From NCBI GenBank assembly GCA_016867235.1, contig VGJY01000002.1, positions 2,647 to 66,646 of the forward strand: DNA of 64,000 bases. Reading direction: 5' to 3'. Source of the stretch: Candidatus Tanganyikabacteria bacterium. GTDB lineage: Bacteria > Cyanobacteriota > Sericytochromatia > S15B-MN24 > VGJW01. The translations under genes and the position numbers were made by a program. Below, in pieces: positions 56,669-63,417 of this stretch (its first letter is position 1; each line of letters starts with the position of its first letter). A model generated the notes under the pieces. That model was not told the origin of the DNA. It did not search any database and worked only from the letters and a program-made list of their open reading frames with translations.

Positions 56669-57544
56669 ATGATGCGATCGACCCTGGCCCGATCGCTCGC
56701 CCTGGGCCTGGCGCTCTCGCTGCCGTTCGGCGTCAGCGCGATCGCGGCGCAGCATGGCCGGGCCACGCTACAGAGCTCCGGAGCCAGCGATCTGCTGGTA
56801 GCCTACGAGAATACATTGATGGCGCATGCCGACGCCTCGCAGGGCAATACGGCGCTTGCGCAGAGCCACCTCAACCTGGCGCGAATGCATCTCGAGCATG
56901 CGAACAAGTCCCTCGGCGCCACGCCGGGCCGCGAGCCCGAGCGGCCGCGGGGCGGCGGCGGCGGCCCCGAAGGCGCCATGATGGAACCCGAAGGCGAAGA
57001 GCGTGCGGCCGAGGATGCGCGCGAGGCCGAGGCGCAGGGCGGTGGCGGCGGTCCCGCCCGCGGGCCGCTCAGCGGGCTCGAGACCATGCTGCGCGCCACC
57101 GAGGAAGACGTGAACACCGAGAGTACGAACCGCCTGGTCGCGTCGTTCACGAACGAACTCGCCCGCGTGGCCCAGATGGGCGGCGGGGGCGGACCGGGCC
57201 AAAGGCCCCAGCCGCTCGCCGAGCGCATCACGGCGACCGAGCATCTGGAGATGGCCTACGCCTCGACCGGCAAGGCTGCCGGCTCCACCGCCATCCAGGC
57301 CTGGGAGGAGGCGAAGGCCGGCATCGACGACGCCAAGCGCCACCTGGACCACGCCAAGAAGGCTCCGGGCAACGAAGCGCTCAAGGCGCAACTCGACCGG
57401 GCCGAGAAGGCGATCAAGGATGCCGAGGGCCCGATCAAGAGCAAGTCGGGCGACGCCCTGGACAGGTCGGCGCGCGCCATCCGCGAGCTGACCATGACCC
57501 TGGCCGCCATGGCGCCTCGCGAGATGCAGGACCGGTCCCGCTAG
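56669..57544 (+). CDS. secreted helical protein with Gly-rich spacers, hypothetical
   Basis: 291 aa with signal peptide MMRSTLARSLALGLALSLPFGVSAIAA. Confidence 0.5.
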   Translation: MMRSTLARSLALGLALSLPFGVSAIAAQHGRATLQSSGASDLLVAYENTLMAHADASQGNTALAQSHLNLARMHLEHANKSLGATPGREPERPRGGGGGPEGAMMEPEGEERAAEDAREAEAQGGGGGPARGPLSGLETMLRATEEDVNTESTNRLVASFTNELARVAQMGGGGGPGQRPQPLAERITATEHLEMAYASTGKAAGSTAIQAWEEAKAGIDDAKRHLDHAKKAPGNEALKAQLDRAEKAIKDAEGPIKSKSGDALDRSARAIRELTMTLAAMAPREMQDRSR

Positions 57545-57615: not shown

Positions 57616-57640
57616 GAGGCCGCGGTCCTGCCGCGGCCTC
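57616..57640. terminator. bidirectional hairpin between convergent genes
   Basis: gaggccgcgg-tcctg-ccgcggcctc is a perfect 10-bp GC stem, with no U-tract. Confidence 0.35.
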
Positions 57641-57644
57641 GTCG

Positions 57645-58259
57645 TCATGGCTCCAGGGCCTCCCGCATTGCCGCCACGAGCGCCTCCTTCACCTCGTCGG
57701 GGCGCCATTGCCTGCCGGTAACTTCCGCGAGGCTCGTCATCACCGCGCTGTCGAGGCCGCAGGCGCGAATGGCGGCGAAGCCGGGATCGGGCGCCACGTT
57801 GAGCGCGACCCCGTGGTACGTGACCCAGTTGCGCACCGCGATGCCAAGGGACGCGATCTTGCGGTCGCCGACCCAGACCCCGGTCAGGCCCGGCTCGCGC
57901 CGGCCAGCCACGCCCAGGGTCGCGAGCGCCCGGATGACCGCATCCTCCAGGGAACGCAAGAACCGGTGCAGGTCGCGCCCGGTCTCCGCCAGCTTGACGA
58001 CCGGATACGCCACGATCTGGCCGGGGCCGTGATAGGTGGCGTCGCCACCCCGTTCGACCTCCACGACCGGAATGTCCCCGGCGGCCAGCACGTTGGCGCG
58101 CGCGCCGCGCTTGCGGCCCAGGGTGATGACCGGCGGATGGGTGACGACCAGCAAGGTGTCGGGCGCCTCGCCTCGCGCCACGGCCCCGACCAGATCGCGC
58201 ATCAGGGCAAGCGCTTCCTCGTAGGGCAGCAGGCCCAGGTCGCGGATCGCCAGCGCCAC
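57645..58259 (-). CDS. lipB: lipoyl(octanoyl) transferase
   Basis: 204 aa with a GTG start and the LipB motifs RGGDATYHGPGQ...KIASLG. Confidence 0.8.
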   Translation of the reverse strand: MALAIRDLGLLPYEEALALMRDLVGAVARGEAPDTLLVVTHPPVITLGRKRGARANVLAAGDIPVVEVERGGDATYHGPGQIVAYPVVKLAETGRDLHRFLRSLEDAVIRALATLGVAGRREPGLTGVWVGDRKIASLGIAVRNWVTYHGVALNVAPDPGFAAIRACGLDSAVMTSLAEVTGRQWRPDEVKEALVAAMREALEP

Positions 58260-59432
58260 TCAGCCGGCCCGGGTCGGGACCCTCTGCGGCTCGGGCGCGA
58301 GACGGGCGAAAAACAGGAACTCCCGCACTTCGTCCCCGGAGTACGAGCGCACTGCGCTGTCGCTGTCCGCCCGGAAACGCTTGTACGCGACCTCCCGGAA
58401 GTCCACCGCCACGGCCCGGCGCGCCAGTTCCTCCCGTAGCACGTCCTCGGGGATCAGGCCCTCGTTGCTGTACGACACCAGGACGTGATCGGCCGCGACG
58501 CCATCCAGGATGCTCGCGAGGGCCGCCGCGGCCGCCGGGCGGCGGCAGAACCGGGAATTCTGCTCGTCGGGCCGCAGCCCGGTCTTGCCGCGCGGGGTGA
58601 AGGAGCCCAGATCCCAGCGGGCGAGCGTTTCCAGGATGTGGTAGTAGGCGTTGTACTGCCGCTGATTGTAGGGCGGATCCAGGTACAGGACGTCGAACCG
58701 CCGGCCCCGGAAGCCCGAGACGAGTCTGGCGATATCGGCGCAGTGCGCCTCGTGGCGCGTGCCGGGAGCAGCGCGCCCGATCGCCGGGATTCGCAATGCC
58801 AAGGGGGCGCGCGCGCTCTTCTTGACGTGCTTCAGGAACGCGGCGTAGACGCTCGCGGTGTTCGCCACCTGGTCCGCGCTCTCCAGGAGGCTGGATAGCA
58901 GGACGCAACTCTCGCCGGTCGTGACGAGGCCGGCGCCTTCCCACGCCGCGATAAGGTCCCGGATGGCCTCGCAGCGCGCCCCGTTGTCGGCCGAGAAGTA
59001 GTTGCGGCCGGCCGAGCCGCCCTCGCAGTATGCGTCGCAGAACCCCGCTGCGCGGCCCGGCAGGGCGTCGAGCCAGGCGAGCACCCGAACAAGCGGCCCC
59101 ATGCCCGCGAGGTCCCTGTCGCGCAGCAGGCCGAAGCGACGCGCCCGACGCTCGTAATCGGCCACCAAGGCGTCCGGGACCCGGATCTCGCCGTGGAGCC
59201 CCGCGAATGCCGGCGGCCCGTCCTGCACCAGGAAGCACTGCTGGAGGACGTAGGAGTAGTGCTGCAGGTCGTTGGAGACCGTCGAGAAGCCCATAGCCTT
59301 CGCGAGTTGGCCCACGACGGCCGTGCCCGCGAAGGCGTCGAGGAAGGTCCCGCCCGCGCGGTCGAGGCCGTGCGCGGCCAGGACGCCGCGGATCTCCGCC
59401 AGGAGGCTGTGCTTGCTGCCGATGTAGTTCAT
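58260..59432 (-). CDS. D12-class (Dam-like, alpha group) N6-adenine DNA methyltransferase
   Basis: The N-terminus MNYIGSK is D12 motif I, and LYLDPPYN is motif IV. 390 aa. The start overlaps the upstream stop in an ATGA arrangement. Confidence 0.75.
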   Translation of the reverse strand: MNYIGSKHSLLAEIRGVLAAHGLDRAGGTFLDAFAGTAVVGQLAKAMGFSTVSNDLQHYSYVLQQCFLVQDGPPAFAGLHGEIRVPDALVADYERRARRFGLLRDRDLAGMGPLVRVLAWLDALPGRAAGFCDAYCEGGSAGRNYFSADNGARCEAIRDLIAAWEGAGLVTTGESCVLLSSLLESADQVANTASVYAAFLKHVKKSARAPLALRIPAIGRAAPGTRHEAHCADIARLVSGFRGRRFDVLYLDPPYNQRQYNAYYHILETLARWDLGSFTPRGKTGLRPDEQNSRFCRRPAAAAALASILDGVAADHVLVSYSNEGLIPEDVLREELARRAVAVDFREVAYKRFRADSDSAVRSYSGDEVREFLFFARLAPEPQRVPTRAG

Positions 59433-59980
59433 GGCTCGGTGTGCCCTTCAGACAGTAGCAGGTCGCGAGCCTGGACGATAGCCCTGAAGTAGCGGACGGC
59501 CTCGGGATCGTCGGGATTGAGGTCCGGATGGAAACGCTTGGAGAGTTCGCGGAACGCGCGGCCGACCGCATCGGGCGAGAGATCGTCCTCGAGGTGGAGC
59601 ACGCCGGCCGCCCACGACCGGCCGCCCTTCCGCAGGCTGTCGAGGCGGGCGCGCAGCTCCTCGATCTCGGCCTGATACGCCAGCTCGCGCTCGGTGGCCT
59701 CCGAGAGCTGGATGGACAGCTTCTGACGCCCCTGCTGGCTCGCGGTCAGCGCCACGCGCAGGGCGTCCACTTCGGAAGTCTGGGGAGCCAGTTCGGGGGT
59801 AGGAGGCGCGTGCGCCACCAGGCGCTCCAGCAGGCCCGTCCGGGTCAGGCCGTAGTTGGCGGCGAGCGTCTCGAGCTGGATGAGGGTCTCGGCGGCGAAG
59901 CGAAATGACACGAGCCGTGCCGGCTCGCCGGTGATGGACTTGGCCGGGGGCTTGCCCCCCCGGTACCCGCCGCGAGGCAT
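59429..59980 (-). CDS. ribbon-helix-helix (Arc/CopG-like) DNA-binding domain fused via coiled coil to a C-terminal J-domain (DnaJ, HPD motif)
   Basis: 183 aa. The N-terminal part PARLVSFRFAAETLIQLETLAANYGLTRTGLLERLV has the RHH beta-alpha-alpha pattern. The C-terminal part FRELSKRFHPDLNPDDPEAVRYFRAIVQARDLL is a J-domain with an HPD motif. Confidence 0.55.
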   Translation of the reverse strand: MPRGGYRGGKPPAKSITGEPARLVSFRFAAETLIQLETLAANYGLTRTGLLERLVAHAPPTPELAPQTSEVDALRVALTASQQGRQKLSIQLSEATERELAYQAEIEELRARLDSLRKGGRSWAAGVLHLEDDLSPDAVGRAFRELSKRFHPDLNPDDPEAVRYFRAIVQARDLLLSEGHTEP

Positions 59981-60025
59981 CTTGAGTCTGTATATACACA
60001 CGAACCCTCGCGTACTATCTAGTTC

Positions 60026-61696
60026 ATGACTCGCCCGCCCGAACAGACGCTGATGCGGCCGGCCGAACGCGATCGGGAGACCAGGCGCGCGCTCGGGGCG
60101 TTCTACACCTCGGACGCGCTGGCGCGCAGTGTCACCGCGAAGGCCCTGGGGTTCTGGGGCGGATCGGGCGTTCCGTCGTCCCTCGATCCGGCATGCGGCG
60201 ATGGGGCGTTCCTGCTTGCACTTGAAGAACTGGGCGTCGCCGGGTCCGGCGACGGGGCGGCGCGCTGCGGCATGGACGTCGATCCGGCGGCGATCGCCGC
60301 TGCCCGGGTGCGCCTGGGCGACGCCCCCGACCTGGTCCTGGCCGACGGACTGGATCCGACCGTGTTTCCGGGCCGCCGGTTCGATCTGGTTCTGGGCAAC
60401 CCGCCGTTCGGCCTGCCGCGGGACGATGCCCGCGCCTGGGGCCTCGCGGCCAAGCGCACCGATTCCTATGCCTGCTTCCTCGCGATGGGCCTCAGACGCC
60501 TGGCGCCAGGAGGTGTCCTGGGGTTCATCACCGCCGACACGTGGCTGTCGATCCGCTCGCACGGCGCCTTGCGCGATCTGCTCCTCCCCCACCTGCTCGC
60601 CGTGGACCTCCTGCCCCCGGGCGCCTTCGACGCGACCGTCGGCACTTGCGCGGTGTACCTGCGGGCCGACCCGGTGCGCGGGCCGATCGCCGTGACGGAC
60701 CTGGCGGGGCGCCGGTACGCCATCGGGCGCGACACGGTCGCCTCTTTGCCTGGACACACCCTCTTCGTGGGCCGCCCCGGCCTGGCGGATCTGCTGGCCG
60801 CGGGCACCGTCCGGCCCGAAGAAGTCGCACCCGGCCACGCCGCGCCCGTGCGAACGCTCCGGCGAGGGGAACGGGACATCCGGCTGGTGCGGCTGGGCGA
60901 CATCGCCGCCACCCCGCACGGCATCTCGACCGGCCAGAACGCCCGCTACGTCCGCGCGGTGCCCGGGATCTCGGGGCGCTACCTCCCGCTCGAGCCGCGC
61001 ATGGCGATGCCGCCCGGGCGCCTGGAGAGCCTCACCGAAGCCGAGAAGCGCGGCGGCGTGGCCGGGGACTGGGAGGATGGCACCGGCTGCTACGTGCCGT
61101 TCGACAAGGGCGCCGCGGCCGATGCCGGCGCGGGCTGGCTGCCGAACTACTTCGTCCCTTGCGGCTACTACCTCAACTGGGCCGAAGGCGCCCTGGCCGA
61201 CATGCGCCGCAATCCCGGCTTCGCGTGGAAGAACAGTCGCTACTTCTTCCGCCGAGGCCTGACGTTCTCGGTCTCGGGCGCGTACGCCCCGACGTTCCGC
61301 CTGGGTGCCGGCGGGGTCTTCGAGGCCAAGAGCTCCGGGCTCTTCTGCGACGTCCTGCCGCCCGAATTGCTGCTGGCCATCCTCTGCAGCCGCGTCGCTC
61401 GCTACCTGTTCAAGGTCTTCATCAAGCACTCGGTGGACACCAGCGGGGCCGACGTGGCGCGCTTTCCGCTCGTGCTGCCCGATCCGGCCGTCCGCGACCG
61501 TATGATCGCGCTCGTGGGCCAGATCATCGCCGCGCAGCGGCGGGACCCGGCCTACCCGTACCAGCACCGCGAGCAGCCCGAACTCGACGCCCTGGCGGCC
61601 CGAGCCTACGGCCTCTCGGACGAAGAGGTCGCCGAGATAGACGCGTGGTTCGCCGCCCGCTACTCGAAGCTGGCGGCGGCGCAATCGCGACGCTGA
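60026..61696 (+). CDS. gamma-class N6-adenine DNA methyltransferase (Eco57I/TaqI-like) with C-terminal target-recognition region
   Basis: 556 aa with motif X GAFYTSD, motif I DPACGDGAFL and motif IV LVLGNPPFG. Confidence 0.7.
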   Translation: MTRPPEQTLMRPAERDRETRRALGAFYTSDALARSVTAKALGFWGGSGVPSSLDPACGDGAFLLALEELGVAGSGDGAARCGMDVDPAAIAAARVRLGDAPDLVLADGLDPTVFPGRRFDLVLGNPPFGLPRDDARAWGLAAKRTDSYACFLAMGLRRLAPGGVLGFITADTWLSIRSHGALRDLLLPHLLAVDLLPPGAFDATVGTCAVYLRADPVRGPIAVTDLAGRRYAIGRDTVASLPGHTLFVGRPGLADLLAAGTVRPEEVAPGHAAPVRTLRRGERDIRLVRLGDIAATPHGISTGQNARYVRAVPGISGRYLPLEPRMAMPPGRLESLTEAEKRGGVAGDWEDGTGCYVPFDKGAAADAGAGWLPNYFVPCGYYLNWAEGALADMRRNPGFAWKNSRYFFRRGLTFSVSGAYAPTFRLGAGGVFEAKSSGLFCDVLPPELLLAILCSRVARYLFKVFIKHSVDTSGADVARFPLVLPDPAVRDRMIALVGQIIAAQRRDPAYPYQHREQPELDALAARAYGLSDEEVAEIDAWFAARYSKLAAAQSRR

Positions 61697-61821
61697 GGCG
61701 CGCCCTCACGGCCGGCTGCGTGAAGATTTGACTTTTTTCCTATCTTAACCGTTTCGGGTATTGCTTGACAGTATCCGATCGGCGCATCCTCGAACATACA
61801 TTTCAGAAAGGATGCGGTGAC

Positions 61822-63417
61822 ATGGAAGCCTCGATCGACTTTTCTCGCCCCTTCGAAGCTTACGGCCGGCGGGAGTTGCTGGAGTGGAATGCCAAGTGCG
61901 GGCGCGAGGCTCGCGGTGCCAAGTGGCGGTTCCTGGCGACACTCCCGGAGATAGATCGTGTCGCGGCCTTCCGGGACGCCGGGTTTCGATCGATCGAGGA
62001 ACTGGCCCAGGTGCGCGGAGCCGTTTCCGAGCGAGACGTGGCCGAAACCTTGCGATTACACGGGTACATCGGGCGATTCTGGGTGCTCTGGCGGCTCTTT
62101 GCCAAAGGAGAAGTCGGCCTGTCCAAACTCCTGCTCGTCGCCCCGCACGTGACAGCCGACTCCGCCGCGTGGTGGGCCGAGCAGGTCCAGCGCTGCAACC
62201 GCGCCCAGTTGCGGGCACTCGTCCGGGCCCTGGCAGCGCAATGCGCCGAGGCGGCGCCCGCGTCCGATAGCCGGACTCTTCCCATTCAGCCGCTCCCCGT
62301 CGCCGACGAGTCTCGAACGGCCGACCGCACGGCTTCGACGCCTGCTCCCACGGCGCGGGTCGGGCTCTCGTCCGGGGAATGCGGCGGTGGCTCTTTGCCC
62401 CCGCCACCCGAGGAGGCCCTGCCGTCGGCGCCCTCGCCGCAAGTCGCAAGCGGAGGCGGTGCAACCGGCGCGCGCAATCCCCCACCCGAGCGGCCCGTCC
62501 GCGTGCGACTCACCGCCGAGCTTAGCGTGGCCGGCGCGAAGGCGTTGGACGATCTCCAGGACCGTTGGGAGCGTGAGCACGGTCCGCTTTCGCGGGGCGA
62601 GGTGATCGAGAAGCTCGCATTCGAGGCGCTGTCGCGGGTCGACGCCCCTGCCGATAACCCAGCGAACTTGACTGCGACCGACGGCGGCGCCTCGAGCGAT
62701 CCGGAGGTCGAAGGCAGCGCCTCAGGCGAAGCAGAGATCGACCGCTCTCTTCCCATTCTGGAGAGTGAGGCTGCAGCCGTCCCGGGGCCGGGTGGTAGCG
62801 GGGAGCCCGCCCGAAGGCCGGGAGCGCCCCGGCGCCTCATCGAGATTGTTTACCGCGAAGCGGACACCGGCTATCGCTGGCTTCCCTCACGCCATGGGCC
62901 CGTGGCCGTGGCGGACATGCCTGCTGCAATTCAAGATCGGCTGGCGGGCGCGCTTTCCATCACCCTCGAGGAACTTCGCGCCAGAGCGCTGGCCGCTTCG
63001 GCGCGGCACGAGCGGAGCCTGCTTCAGCGCATGGCAGCCAGGAGGCGGGAGGGACGCGACGTGCCCGCCGACCTCGGGCGCGACATCCCGCTCCACGTCG
63101 AGATATACATGATGGGAAGGTCCGGCGGCCGCTGCGAAAGCGAAGGGTGCACGCGCCGGGCGATCGACCTCCACCACCTCGACCCGTTCGGCGAGACCCG
63201 GCGGCACGACATCGACCGGATGCTGGCCCTCTGCGCCGGGCACCACCCTGCCTACCACTCGGACGCCACGACTCCGGATGCGGGCGACCCGCGAGTCCTC
63301 CGGGCGGCCGCGCCCGGCACCGAGGTCCGGTGCTCCGCGGTAAACGTCAAGGTGGCGGCCTGCAAGCGGCGAGCCCTGGCCGGGAGAGGTGGAGCAGCCG
63401 CTGCGGAGTGGGCCTGA
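61822..63417 (+). CDS. DUF222-like N-domain + C-terminal HNH endonuclease protein
   Basis: The HNH motif is GGRCESEGCTRRAIDLHHLDPFGETRRHDIDRMLALCAGHH. A TTGACA box and AAGGA precede the ATG at 61822. The track ORF begins 57 nt earlier. Confidence 0.6.
   Translation: MEASIDFSRPFEAYGRRELLEWNAKCGREARGAKWRFLATLPEIDRVAAFRDAGFRSIEELAQVRGAVSERDVAETLRLHGYIGRFWVLWRLFAKGEVGLSKLLLVAPHVTADSAAWWAEQVQRCNRAQLRALVRALAAQCAEAAPASDSRTLPIQPLPVADESRTADRTASTPAPTARVGLSSGECGGGSLPPPPEEALPSAPSPQVASGGGATGARNPPPERPVRVRLTAELSVAGAKALDDLQDRWEREHGPLSRGEVIEKLAFEALSRVDAPADNPANLTATDGGASSDPEVEGSASGEAEIDRSLPILESEAAAVPGPGGSGEPARRPGAPRRLIEIVYREADTGYRWLPSRHGPVAVADMPAAIQDRLAGALSITLEELRARALAASARHERSLLQRMAARRREGRDVPADLGRDIPLHVEIYMMGRSGGRCESEGCTRRAIDLHHLDPFGETRRHDIDRMLALCAGHHPAYHSDATTPDAGDPRVLRAAAPGTEVRCSAVNVKVAACKRRALAGRGGAAAAEWA

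What the first reader, a model, noticed from the sequence alone, without database searches (positions are those of the whole stretch)
57645..59980. Operon encoding a ribbon-helix-helix/J-domain fusion protein translationally coupled to a Dam-like MTase and lipB
The first gene (59980 to 59429, minus strand) encodes a 183-aa protein. Its N-terminal 60 aa has the beta-strand/helix/helix pattern of Arc/CopG/ParD ribbon-helix-helix DNA binders (LVSFRFAAETLIQLETLAANYGLTRTGLLERLV). A coiled-coil linker follows (ELAYQAEIEELRARLDSL). The C-terminal 55 aa is a J-domain with the HPD motif (FRELSKRFHPDLNPDDPEAVRYFRAIVQARDLL).

A sequence-specific DNA-binding domain fused to an Hsp70-recruiting J-domain is, as far as I know, not a described bacterial architecture.

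Its stop overlaps the ATG of a D12-class adenine MTase in an ATGA arrangement (MTase motifs MNYIGSK and DPPYN). That MTase abuts lipB with no spacer.

The arrangement suggests a methylation-linked regulatory or defense module. One reading is an RHH repressor that uses DnaK to remodel a complex at a methylation-sensitive operator. An orphan MTase under a C-protein-like controller is another reading. The recruitment of housekeeping lipB into the same transcript is also odd.
Basis: partly seen in the sequence, partly recalled or inferred. Interest (0 to 1): 0.65.

Follow-up and report, generated by a model that had tools for sequence, protein, structure and literature searches.

The report
DNA-binding repressor fused to chaperone-recruiting J-domain
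A rare 183-residue protein in uncultured Sericytochromatia joins a ribbon-helix-helix DNA-binding domain to an Hsp70-recruiting J-domain, always has a conserved 20-bp palindrome in front of its gene, and always sits between two DNA adenine methyltransferase genes, so it is probably a chaperone-linked autoregulator rather than a defence system.

Summary
Window 59980..59429 (-) encodes a 183-aa protein with three parts: an N-terminal ribbon-helix-helix (RHH) domain, a ~50-residue single helix, and a C-terminal J-domain with an invariant HPD motif. Its stop overlaps the start of a D12-class adenine MTase (ATGA). That MTase's TGA abuts the GTG start of lipB.

New here:
- A 20-bp AT-rich palindrome (GAGT-NN-GTATATAC-NN-ACTC; window 59984-60003) lies just upstream of the J gene in all 8 loci found. 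It occurs nowhere else in 198 kb and is absent from the J-less relatives.
- It sits in a 45-bp gap shared with a divergent Eco57I/PglX-like MTase.
- The family is tiny: 11 sequences (52-100% identity) plus one more recovered by translating locus L017. Those with a source name are Sericytochromatia. No other protein carrying this N-terminal domain appears to have a J-domain.
- At least two related genomes keep MTase-lipB without the J gene.

Best reading: an autoregulatory RHH repressor that is also a class-C J-domain protein, tying control of the divergent MTase promoters to DnaK. No restriction enzyme or known defence partner was found. The lipB link is inherited synteny. This is a new variant of known kinds, of moderate interest.

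The parts
59984..60003 (.). 20-bp AT-rich palindrome. On the gene strand it reads TCGTGTGTATATACAGACTC; the family consensus is GAGT-NN-GTATATAC-NN-ACTC. It ends 3 nt before the J gene ATG and 22 nt before the divergent MTase ATG. Proposed operator overlapping a -10-like TATATA.
   Evidence: Unique in the 64-kb window, with 0 matches in 100 shuffles. Aligned across loci. A degenerate motif matches only upstream of the J start in all 8 J loci, nowhere else in 198 kb on either strand, and not in J-less loci. L017 carries a symmetric core variant, GTCTAGAC. Binding by the protein is inferred.
59801..59980 (-). Residues 1-60 of the J protein: an invariant basic/glycine N-terminal arm (MPRGGYRGGKPP.KS.TGE) followed by the RHH core. 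The core is a strand (~22-28, VSFRF), helix A (30-42), a G-x-T turn and helix B (47-56).
   Evidence: Conservation. AF2 helices at 30-42 and 47-56. The N-terminal profile hits standalone 54-100-aa proteins, 7 of 10 of which pass the Pfam RHH_1 cutoff. hhalign 99.6%. Foldseek top hits are CopG, Arc, NikA, ParD and PutA RHH domains.
59630..59776 (-). Residues 69-117: a long single helix, the probable coiled-coil spacer or oligomerisation element.
   Evidence: AF2 helix 69-117 with block pLDDT 82-95. Only weak coiled-coil family hits. Oligomeric state is not tested.
59444..59623 (-). Residues 120-179: J-domain helices I-III with the HPD loop (H151-P152-D153). Helix IV is absent.
   Evidence: Pfam PF00226 37.3 bits against cutoff 27.8. 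PDB profile hits to E 4.6e-10, including E. coli DnaJ 5nro_B. Foldseek rmsd 1.2-1.4 A over ~50 residues. HPD is invariant.
59429..59980 (-). Whole gene for the 183-aa RHH / long helix / J-domain protein.
58260..59432 (-). D12-class (alpha-type) N6-adenine DNA methyltransferase, 390 aa. It has no restriction partner here. Its start overlaps the J gene stop (ATGA).
   Evidence: Pfam PF02086 83.6 bits. It is not a Dam orthologue: TIGR00571 scores 14.6 against a cutoff of 114.85. PADLOC MTase_II 237 bits. A 48%-identical homologue is paired with an ICEA/NlaIII-like REase in L011.
57645..58259 (-). lipB, octanoyl/lipoyl transferase, 204 aa. Its GTG start directly abuts the MTase stop.
   Evidence: NCBIfam NF010925 173 bits against cutoff 155; Pfam LplA-B_cat 150.7 bits. 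Adjacency to the MTase is conserved with or without the J gene.
57616..57640 (-). GC-rich hairpin immediately after the lipB stop. It is the probable end of the transcription unit, lying between convergent genes.
   Evidence: Fold energy -30.7 kcal/mol, z -4.76, 0 of 200 shuffles as stable. No U-tract. Terminator function is inferred.
60026..61696 (+). Divergent gamma-class N6-adenine MTase, 556 aa (motif I DPACGDG, motif IV NPPFG). It is Eco57I-type with a PglX-like C-terminal region and no nuclease domain. It shares the 45-bp intergenic region and the palindrome with the J gene.
   Evidence: Pfam Eco57I 37.8 bits; N6_Mtase 20.2 bits, just below its 20.4 cutoff. NCBIfam PglX partial hits. PADLOC MTase_II, mad2 and PglX partial hits. 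The divergent arrangement is conserved in L004, L005, L015 and the P0018 contig.

Best explanation
The 183-aa protein is a lineage-specific class-C J-domain protein whose targeting module is a ribbon-helix-helix DNA-binding domain.

Proposed mechanism:
1. It forms a dimer, or a dimer of dimers through the long helix.
2. It binds the 20-bp palindrome GAGT-NN-GTATATAC-NN-ACTC. The palindrome overlaps the -10-like TATATA of its own promoter, which has a near-leaderless layout, and lies in the 45-bp gap shared with the divergent Eco57I-like MTase gene.
3. It thereby represses its own operon (J gene, D12 adenine MTase, lipB) and probably also the divergent MTase.
4. The C-terminal J-domain with intact HPD recruits DnaK-ATP to the repressor-operator complex. 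Free DnaK then either remodels or strips the repressor, or is needed for its activity.

Expression of the two orphan adenine MTases would thus be coupled to the cell's chaperone and proteostasis state.

What is shown: the domain composition, purifying selection, the conserved gene order, and the co-occurring palindrome.

What is inferred: DNA binding to that palindrome, repression, and any DnaK effect.

lipB belongs to the transcription unit by inherited gene order, not by functional logic.
For: J-domain:
- Above the Pfam cutoff, with invariant HPD and a J fold.

RHH:
- The N-terminal profile, searched against 1.84 billion representatives, finds short standalone proteins at E 6e-7 to 1e-3. Seven of 10 scanned pass the RHH_1 gathering score, and several of those scanned match PHROG Arc/CopG-like repressor families.
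- hhalign gives 99.6%.
- Foldseek top hits of the N-terminal model are almost all RHH DNA binders.

Cis element:
- The palindrome is unique in the window, with 0 of 100 shuffles matching.
- It lies directly upstream of the J start in 8 of 8 J loci, is absent elsewhere in 198 kb, and is absent from J-less loci.
- It shows a symmetric core substitution in L017.
- It sits 2-8 nt from the start codon in 6 loci, with no Shine-Dalgarno sequence.

Context:
- The order Eco57I-like MTase <> J > D12 MTase > lipB is conserved from 52% to 100% J-protein identity.
- dN/dS is 0.02-0.12 in all three segments for the closer pairs.
- A strong hairpin closes the unit after lipB.

From established knowledge, not tested here:
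- RHH repressors such as Arc, Mnt, CopG, omega and ParD typically autoregulate through palindromic or repeated operators over their own promoters.
- DnaK/DnaJ control DNA-binding proteins such as sigma32, HspR, P1 RepA and eukaryotic HSF1.
Against: - No experiment or direct computation links the protein to the palindrome. An AT-rich palindrome between divergent genes could simply be a bidirectional promoter core.
- The promoter scan found no sigma-70 consensus in the region.
- The window protein itself does not reach any Pfam RHH cutoff. The RHH assignment is transitive and structural, and the Foldseek E-values are weak (0.25-3) because the domain is short.
- The beta strand is not formed in the monomer model.
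- Helix IV of the J-domain is missing. By my own alignment to E. coli DnaJ, one helix-II basic position (R27 equivalent) is Glu.
- Two related genomes keep the D12 MTase-lipB pair, and one of them also the Eco57I-like MTase, without the J gene. The regulator is therefore dispensable.
- All members belong to one narrow clade, so conserved gene order may reflect shared descent rather than function.
Confidence: 0.45

Rival explanations
1. It acts as a C-protein-like controller left over from a decayed restriction-modification system. The RHH domain times or limits MTase expression, and the J-domain is an accessory with no role in regulation.
For: - The gene is directly upstream of, and partly translationally coupled to, the D12 MTase.
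- A palindrome precedes the gene, as a C-box would.
- A 48%-identical MTase homologue in another phylum is paired with an ICEA/NlaIII-like endonuclease, so the MTase family derives from R-M systems.
Against: - Known C proteins are Xre-type HTH proteins. This one is RHH.
- No endonuclease gene is conserved in any of the 8 loci.
- The J-domain is under purifying selection at least as strong as the RHH domain in the two closer pairs (dN/dS 0.02-0.10), so it is not a passenger.
- J-less genomes keep the MTases.
Confidence: 0.12
2. It is a dedicated co-chaperone. The J protein hands the co-translated MTase, or both MTases, to DnaK for folding or assembly on DNA. The RHH domain only localises it to the nucleoid.
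For: - The J stop overlaps the MTase start in 3 loci.
- The J gene always neighbours the same two MTases.
- From established knowledge, class-C J proteins are often client-specific and encoded beside their client (HscB-IscU).
Against: - The MTases exist without the J gene in close relatives.
- There are 131-310-nt gaps between the J gene and the MTase in L001 and L004.
- A sequence-specific palindrome that travels with the gene points to site-specific binding, not general nucleoid binding.
- No client-binding domain is evident.
Confidence: 0.1
3. It is a relic of a mobile-element gene, such as an omega/ParG/CopG-type plasmid or phage regulator that acquired a J-domain. It is fixed by descent between two former R-M methylases and regulates only itself.
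For: - The closest N-terminal relatives are short standalone RHH proteins that match phage Arc/CopG-like repressor PHROGs and share the MPRGG.R.G N-terminal arm.
- The gene is patchily present within the clade.
- The neighbouring MTases are of R-M type.
Against: - No relative was found in viral contigs, phage records or plasmid records beyond generic J-domain hits.
- GC content matches the flanks at 0.70-0.72.
- The flanks are housekeeping genes in conserved order.
- Because the palindrome sits 14-40 nt from the divergent MTase start, an effect on that gene is hard to avoid.
Confidence: 0.15
4. The conserved palindrome is only a bidirectional promoter core (self-complementary TATATA), and the N-terminal domain is a dimerisation module rather than a DNA binder.
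For: - TATATA is self-complementary and AT-rich in a 70% GC genome.
- The spacing to both start codons fits a -10 element.
- The monomer model shows no beta strand.
Against: - The conserved outer arms GAGT/ACTC, 6 nt either side of the core, and the symmetric core change in L017 are not explained by a -10 box.
- The element is absent where the two MTases are divergent without the J gene (L009).
- RHH domains form their strand only on dimerisation, and the fold hits are DNA-bound RHH repressors.
Confidence: 0.12

Closest known systems
Arc/Mnt/CopG/omega-type ribbon-helix-helix autorepressors (Pfam RHH_1, PF01402)
   Same: - A short N-terminal beta-alpha-alpha domain with a G-x-T turn.
- A basic N-terminal arm.
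- A palindromic operator over the gene's own promoter.
- Foldseek top hits are CopG-DNA and Arc.
- The nearest sequence relatives pass the RHH_1 cutoff.
   Different: - It carries a ~50-residue helix and a J-domain at the C-terminus. Known RHH repressors instead have nothing there, a toxin-binding tail, or an enzyme domain (PutA).
- The window protein itself is below the RHH_1 cutoff.
Class C (type III) J-domain proteins, e.g. DjlA, HscB and CbpA-like nucleoid-associated DnaJ homologues
   Same: - A J-domain with HPD, used with a specialised targeting module.
- No G/F region, zinc finger or DnaJ_C domain.
- CbpA also associates with DNA.
   Different: - CbpA binds curved DNA non-specifically and has DnaJ C-terminal domains.
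- DjlA is membrane-anchored.
- Here the targeting module is a sequence-specific RHH with a cognate palindrome, the J-domain is C-terminal, and it lacks helix IV.
Chaperone-gated transcription factors (HspR-DnaK, sigma32-DnaJ/DnaK, HSF1-DNAJB1/Hsp70) and SV40 large T antigen (J-domain plus origin-binding domain)
   Same: Hsp70 acts on a DNA-bound factor to alter its DNA binding or oligomeric state. T antigen fuses a J-domain to a sequence-specific DNA-binding domain in one chain. These points come from established knowledge and were not tested here.
   Different: - In the bacterial examples the J protein is a separate polypeptide.
- No bacterial RHH-J fusion turned up in the two literature searches run.
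- None is mentioned in the main text of a survey of about 280,000 J-domain proteins, PMC10410713. Its supplements could not be read.
Controller (C) proteins of restriction-modification systems
   Same: A small DNA-binding protein gene directly upstream of, and overlapping, a modification gene, preceded by a palindrome.
   Different: - C proteins are HTH proteins.
- They need a restriction gene to control, and none is present.
- They have no J-domain.

Membership tests
J-domain protein (Pfam PF00226) | Profile match above the curated cutoff | tested here: met
   37.3 bits against cutoff 27.8, residues 127-176. PDB J-domains match down to E 4.6e-10.
J-domain protein (Pfam PF00226) | HPD tripeptide in the loop between helices II and III | tested here: met
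   H151-P152-D153 is invariant in 10 homologues and also present in L017.
J-domain protein (Pfam PF00226) | Helical hairpin fold (helices I-IV) | tested here: met
   AF2 helices at 120-127, 136-150 and 159-179. Foldseek rmsd 1.2-1.4 A over ~50 residues to solved J-domains. Helix IV is absent because the protein ends at residue 183.
J-domain protein (Pfam PF00226) | Stimulates Hsp70/DnaK ATPase | not testable with these tools
   Needs a biochemical assay.
Class A/B DnaJ or CbpA | G/F region, zinc finger and/or DnaJ C-terminal substrate-binding domains | tested here: not met
   No DnaJ_C or DnaJ_CXXCXGXG hit. NCBIfam DnaJ models match only the J-domain, at 25-30 bits against cutoffs above 300.
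Ribbon-helix-helix superfamily (Arc/MetJ/CopG) | Direct profile match above cutoff (RHH_1 or a related family) | tested here: not met
   The window protein has no RHH family at E<=10. Two of 10 family members hit RHH_1 at a best E of 0.008, and one hits NikA-like at 0.0075.
Ribbon-helix-helix superfamily (Arc/MetJ/CopG) | Homology to bona fide RHH proteins | tested here: met
   The N-terminal profile hits 43 short proteins at E<=1e-3 in 1.84e9 sequences. Seven of 10 scanned pass the RHH_1 cutoff. hhalign 99.6%, E 1.8e-23, with the caveat that this comparison set was chosen from the profile's own hits. PDB 3h87_C, which Foldseek lists under the M. tuberculosis Rv0301-Rv0300 toxin-antitoxin complex, matches at E 0.0014-0.023.
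Ribbon-helix-helix superfamily (Arc/MetJ/CopG) | Strand-helix-turn-helix fold | tested here: met
   AF2 helices at 30-42 and 47-56, with pLDDT 81-92 over residues 31-60. Foldseek top ~17 hits are RHH proteins (CopG, Arc, NikA, Rv0298, ParD, PutA), probability up to 0.95 but E 0.25-2. The strand is not formed in the monomer model.
Ribbon-helix-helix superfamily (Arc/MetJ/CopG) | Dimer that inserts a two-stranded sheet into the major groove of a repeated or palindromic operator | tested here: inconclusive
   A conserved, co-occurring 20-bp palindrome exists. Dimerisation and binding cannot be tested here.
R-M controller (C) protein | Xre-type helix-turn-helix fold | tested here: not met
   The fold and the homologues are RHH.
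R-M controller (C) protein | Co-located restriction endonuclease gene under its control | tested here: not met
   No endonuclease is conserved in the 8 loci. The HNH-like ORF at 61765-63417 is specific to this window.
RHH antitoxin of a type II toxin-antitoxin pair | Adjacent cognate toxin gene | tested here: not met
   The downstream genes are an MTase and lipB. No toxin family hit was found.
D12-class N6-adenine DNA methyltransferase (PF02086) | Profile match above cutoff, plus motif I (FxGxG-like) and motif IV (DPPY) | tested here: met
   83.6 bits against cutoff 22. DAFAGTA and LDPPYN are read directly from the sequence.
Dam (GATC) orthologue, TIGR00571 | Score above the subfamily cutoff | tested here: not met
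   14.6 bits against cutoff 114.85. No PDB relative by sequence. Target specificity is unknown; CATG is only a lead, from the ICEA-like neighbour of a 48% homologue.
LipB octanoyltransferase | Equivalog model above cutoff | tested here: met
   NF010925 173.4 bits against cutoff 155; TIGR00214 150.7 against 83.55.
Known anti-phage defence systems (PADLOC-DB, incl. BREX, MADS) | The J protein or a full gene set matches a defence model | tested here: not met
   The J protein has 0 hits. The MTases hit only generic MTase, PglX or mad2 methylase portions. No PglZ, BrxC or other partners are nearby.

The most novel reading that the evidence does not exclude
It is a single-chain, chaperone-gated repressor. 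The RHH domain holds the protein on a 20-bp operator between two DNA adenine methyltransferase genes, and the built-in J-domain loads DnaK onto the repressor itself. Free-DnaK level, and hence proteotoxic stress, would then directly set the expression of the cell's DNA-methylation enzymes. This would be a bacterial counterpart of HSF1-Hsp70 control, and the first bacterial J-domain protein targeted to a specific DNA sequence.
Probability: 0.2. Interest if true: 0.7.

Novelty: new variant of a known kind. Interest (0 to 1): 0.45.

Why it matters
J-domain proteins decide where Hsp70 acts. In bacteria the known specialised ones point DnaK at membranes, Fe-S scaffolds or the nucleoid in general.

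A J-domain fused to a sequence-specific RHH with an identifiable cognate palindrome would be a compact, testable model for Hsp70 acting on a defined protein-DNA complex. It would also be a possible route from proteostasis to DNA methylation.

The components are small: 183 aa and 20 bp. They could be tested in E. coli with its own DnaK, even though the source organism is uncultured.

The family is very small and dispensable in close relatives, so its biological reach is probably narrow.

Tried and rejected
- **Defence-system reading.** PADLOC gave nothing for the J protein and only generic methylase hits for the MTases. No REase is conserved.
- **Dam orthology.** Rejected by the TIGR00571 score.
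- **Mobile-element origin.** No relatives in viral contigs, phage records or plasmid records beyond generic J-domain matches. GC content is flat across the region.
- **Wider distribution.** GTDB species genomes gave 0 confirmed loci and JGI metagenomes gave 1.
- **J remnants in J-less loci.** tblastn found none.
- **Methylation site in the operator.** CATG, GATC and GANTC are not conserved in the palindrome, by inspection. CATG and GATC are not depleted in the window.
- **Sigma-70 consensus scan.** 0 promoter hits. The one terminator-like hit inside the J gene is at chance level.
- **Rfam and tRNA scans of the window.** Nothing found.
- **J-domain-only protein search for sister architectures.** It returned no candidates, so that search was wasted.
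- **Literature.** No paper describing an RHH-J fusion turned up. The supplements of the large J-domain survey are not held.


Full report
**Observation**

Its stop overlaps the ATG of a 390-aa gene (59432-58260) in the sequence CCATGAAC. That gene begins MNYIGSK and contains LDPPYN. Its TGA (58262-58260) is followed at once by the GTG of a 204-aa gene (58259-57645).

- Pfam assigns the three products to DnaJ (37.3 bits, cutoff 27.8, residues 127-176), MethyltransfD12 (83.6 bits) and LplA-B_cat (150.7 bits).
- NCBIfam confirms LipB (NF010925, 173 bits against 155). It shows the MTase is not a Dam orthologue (TIGR00571, 14.6 against 114.85).
- A GC-rich hairpin (57616-57640, -30.7 kcal/mol, z -4.8) follows the lipB stop.

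The mechanical ORF is open upstream to 61684. This is a high-GC artefact lying antisense to a real divergent gene.

**The protein**

Ten full-length homologues (52-100% identity) exist among 5.8 billion clusters. The two with a source name are labelled Candidatus Sericytochromatia. Their alignment shows several conserved features:

- an invariant N-terminal arm, M-P-R-G-G-Y-R-G-G-K-P-P-x-K-S-x-T-G-E;
- a strand-helix-G-x-T-helix segment;
- a variable linker;
- a conserved helical segment;
- a J-domain with invariant H151-P152-D153.

AlphaFold2 with this alignment (mean pLDDT 78.5) gives helices at 30-42 and 47-56, one long helix at 69-117, and J-domain helices at 120-127, 136-150 and 159-179. 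There is no helix IV. Foldseek superposes the C-terminus on solved J-domains at 1.2-1.4 A over about 50 residues. The family profile matches PDB J-domains, including E. coli DnaJ, down to E 4.6e-10.

Nei-Gojobori dN/dS between the closer pairs is 0.05-0.11 overall and 0.02-0.12 in each of the three segments. All three parts are therefore maintained by selection.

**Is the N-terminus an RHH?**

Direct Pfam hits are below threshold. The window protein has none, and 2 of 10 members hit RHH_1 at a best E of 0.008. Three independent lines nevertheless agree.

1. A profile of residues 1-70 was searched with HMMER against 1.84 billion representatives. It returned only its own cluster strongly (136 bits), plus 43 proteins at E 6e-7 to 1e-3. 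Most of these are 54-100 aa long, and several share the MPRGG.R.G arm. Seven of 10 scanned pass the RHH_1 gathering score. Several of those scanned against PHROGs match Arc/CopG-like repressor families.
2. Profile-profile comparison with those RHH_1-positive proteins gives 99.6% probability. The comparison set was drawn from the profile's own hits, so it is not fully independent.
3. An AF2 model of residues 1-70 finds CopG-DNA, Arc, NikA, Rv0298, CopA, ParD and PutA RHH domains as its top Foldseek matches. Probability reaches 0.95, and E-values are weak because the domain is about 36 residues long.

I accept the RHH assignment. None of the 43 weak hits is recognisable as a J-domain protein. 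Most are too short, and four of the longer ones (P0133, P0139, P0164, P0171) show two matched RHH stretches each. The RHH / long helix / J architecture therefore appears confined to this clade, within the reach of the search.

**A cis element that travels with the gene**

The gap between the J gene ATG (59980) and the ATG of the divergent gene (60026) is only 45 bp. It contains an AT-rich palindrome in a 70% GC genome.

- The 18-mer consensus matches once in the window (59985-60002) and in 0 of 100 shuffles.
- Upstream regions of the homologous genes align on it.
- A degenerate motif, GT[AC][TC]A[TG]AC[AG]N[AT]CT, matches only directly upstream of the J start in each of the 8 distinct J loci: window, L001, L004, L005, L006, L014, L015 and L017.
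- It often matches on both strands at the same place.
- It matches nowhere else in 198 kb of window plus loci, and not in the J-less loci.

The consensus is GAGT-NN-GTATATAC-NN-ACTC. L017 has GTCTAGAC as its core, a symmetric change.

In six loci the element ends 2-8 nt before the start codon with no Shine-Dalgarno sequence. This fits a -10-like TATATA and a leaderless or near-leaderless mRNA. In L014 and L001 it lies 27 and 65 nt upstream. A conserved palindrome over its own promoter is the classic arrangement of RHH autorepressors. That last point is established knowledge, and binding has not been shown here.

**Neighbourhood**

In every J locus with enough sequence the order is:

Eco57I-type MTase (divergent) <> J > D12 MTase > lipB

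This is followed by a conserved unknown gene, an FAD-linked oxidase and a glycerol-3-phosphate-dehydrogenase-like gene. Upstream lie TyrRS, a histidine kinase and an ANTAR regulator, or DUF2804. One J gene (L017, and the ENA contig of P0018) had been missed or called antisense by gene callers. tblastn and translation recover it with a GTG start.

The 4-nt J/MTase overlap is present in the window, L005 and L006. Gaps of 13, 18, ~90, 131 and 310 nt occur in L015, L014, L017, L004 and L001.

Two related genomes lack the J gene.

- L009/L010 have the two MTases back to back, 109 bp apart, followed by lipB.
- L007/L008 have BON-domain genes upstream of MTase-lipB.

tblastn finds no J remnant in either. 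Their MTases are 72-78% identical to MTases of J-bearing loci and nest among them. This implies at least two losses or gains of the J gene.

The divergent 556-aa product has motif I DPACGDG and motif IV NPPFG. It scores 37.8 bits on Pfam Eco57I and has a PglX-like C-terminal region, but no nuclease domain and no BREX or MADS partners.

The D12 MTase family is broad, with more than 3,700 proteins at E<=1e-10 across phyla. A 48% homologue in another phylum lies 6 nt downstream of an ICEA/NlaIII-like HNH endonuclease gene (29.7 bits, cutoff 24). The family therefore includes true R-M methylases, possibly CATG-specific. In the window no such partner exists, and CATG is not depleted (observed/expected 1.07).

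**Interpretation**

The most economical reading is a lineage-specific class-C J-domain protein whose targeting module is an autoregulatory RHH.

- It binds the palindrome that overlaps its own promoter and sits 22 nt from the divergent MTase start codon.
- It would therefore control the J-MTase-lipB unit, and probably the divergent MTase as well.
- The J-domain is as strongly conserved as the DNA-binding part. It would recruit DnaK to the repressor-operator complex.

By analogy with HspR-DnaK, sigma32-DnaJ/DnaK, P1 RepA and HSF1-Hsp70 (established knowledge, not tested here), DnaK could strip, monomerise or activate the repressor. Either way, expression would be tied to free chaperone levels. 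The direction of the effect cannot be predicted.

lipB is in the unit because MTase-lipB adjacency predates or is independent of the J gene. I see no functional logic in that link, and none is needed.

**Rivals**

Four alternatives are listed with their tests:

- a C-protein-like controller of a decayed R-M system;
- a dedicated co-chaperone for the MTase;
- a self-regulating mobile-element relic;
- a palindrome that is only a bidirectional promoter core.

The defence reading is not supported. PADLOC has no hit for the J protein. No relatives were found in viral contigs, phages or plasmids. The genomic context is housekeeping genes.

**Comparison with the known, and novelty**

The parts are ordinary: an RHH repressor, a J-domain and orphan MTases. 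The combination is not ordinary.

- Two full-text literature searches returned no paper describing an RHH-J fusion.
- The main text of a survey of about 280,000 J-domain proteins mentions only eukaryotic myb/SANT DNA-binding partners (PMC10410713). Its domain tables could not be read.
- From my own knowledge, the nearest analogues are CbpA, which binds curved DNA non-specifically and has DnaJ C-terminal domains, and SV40 large T antigen, which carries a J-domain plus an origin-binding domain.

I rate it a new variant of known kinds. Interest is moderate. It is a neat, directly testable model for Hsp70 acting at a defined DNA site. Against that, the family has about a dozen sequences in one uncultured clade and is dispensable in close relatives.

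Noticed in passing
window 61765-63417 (+): A 550-aa ORF with a C-terminal HNH-like motif (HHLDPF...CAGHH). Hits are weak: RecA_dep_nuc E 0.0037 and a PADLOC endonuclease effector E 0.0036. It lies beside the Eco57I-like MTase only in this window. The other loci have DUF2804, an ANTAR regulator or an unknown gene there. It is probably a lineage-specific insertion, not a cognate nuclease.
   Followed up: partly
window 60026-61696 (+): The divergent 556-aa gamma-class adenine MTase (NPPFG) has a PglX/type-IIG-like C-terminal region but no nuclease domain and no BREX or MADS partner genes. It is conserved as a second orphan MTase across the clade, even where the J gene is absent (L009).
   Followed up: partly
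L011 5173-5994 and 6001-7185: A 48%-identical homologue of the D12 MTase, in a different genomic context with no synteny to the window, sits 6 nt downstream of an ICEA/NlaIII-like HNH endonuclease gene (Pfam ICEA 29.7 bits, cutoff 24). This suggests the MTase family derives from CATG-type R-M systems.
   Followed up: partly
L017 185-709; ENA contig of P0018: The J gene homologue, which has a GTG start, was mis-called by gene callers. It appears as a 235-aa truncated ORF in one assembly and as a 203-aa antisense gene in the other. Database counts of this family are therefore slight underestimates.
   Followed up: yes
window 57616-57640: A perfect 10-bp GC stem-loop lies right after the lipB stop, between convergent genes (-30.7 kcal/mol, z -4.8). 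It has no U-tract. It is a likely bidirectional terminator in this high-GC genome.
   Followed up: partly
L001 1582-1890 and L004 3140-3269: In two loci the J gene and the MTase are separated by 310 and 131 nt of unannotated sequence instead of overlapping. The content of these spacers was not examined.
   Followed up: no
window 56675-57544 (+): A conserved gene of ~290-320 aa, convergent with lipB, has a signal-peptide-like N-terminus and low-complexity Gly/Glu/Ala-rich repeats. It has no family hit and is present in nearly all related loci.
   Followed up: no
P0133, P0139, P0164, P0171 (hits): Several distant relatives of the N-terminal domain carry two RHH repeats in one chain (169-274 aa). 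They may be natural single-chain RHH 'dimers'.
   Followed up: no
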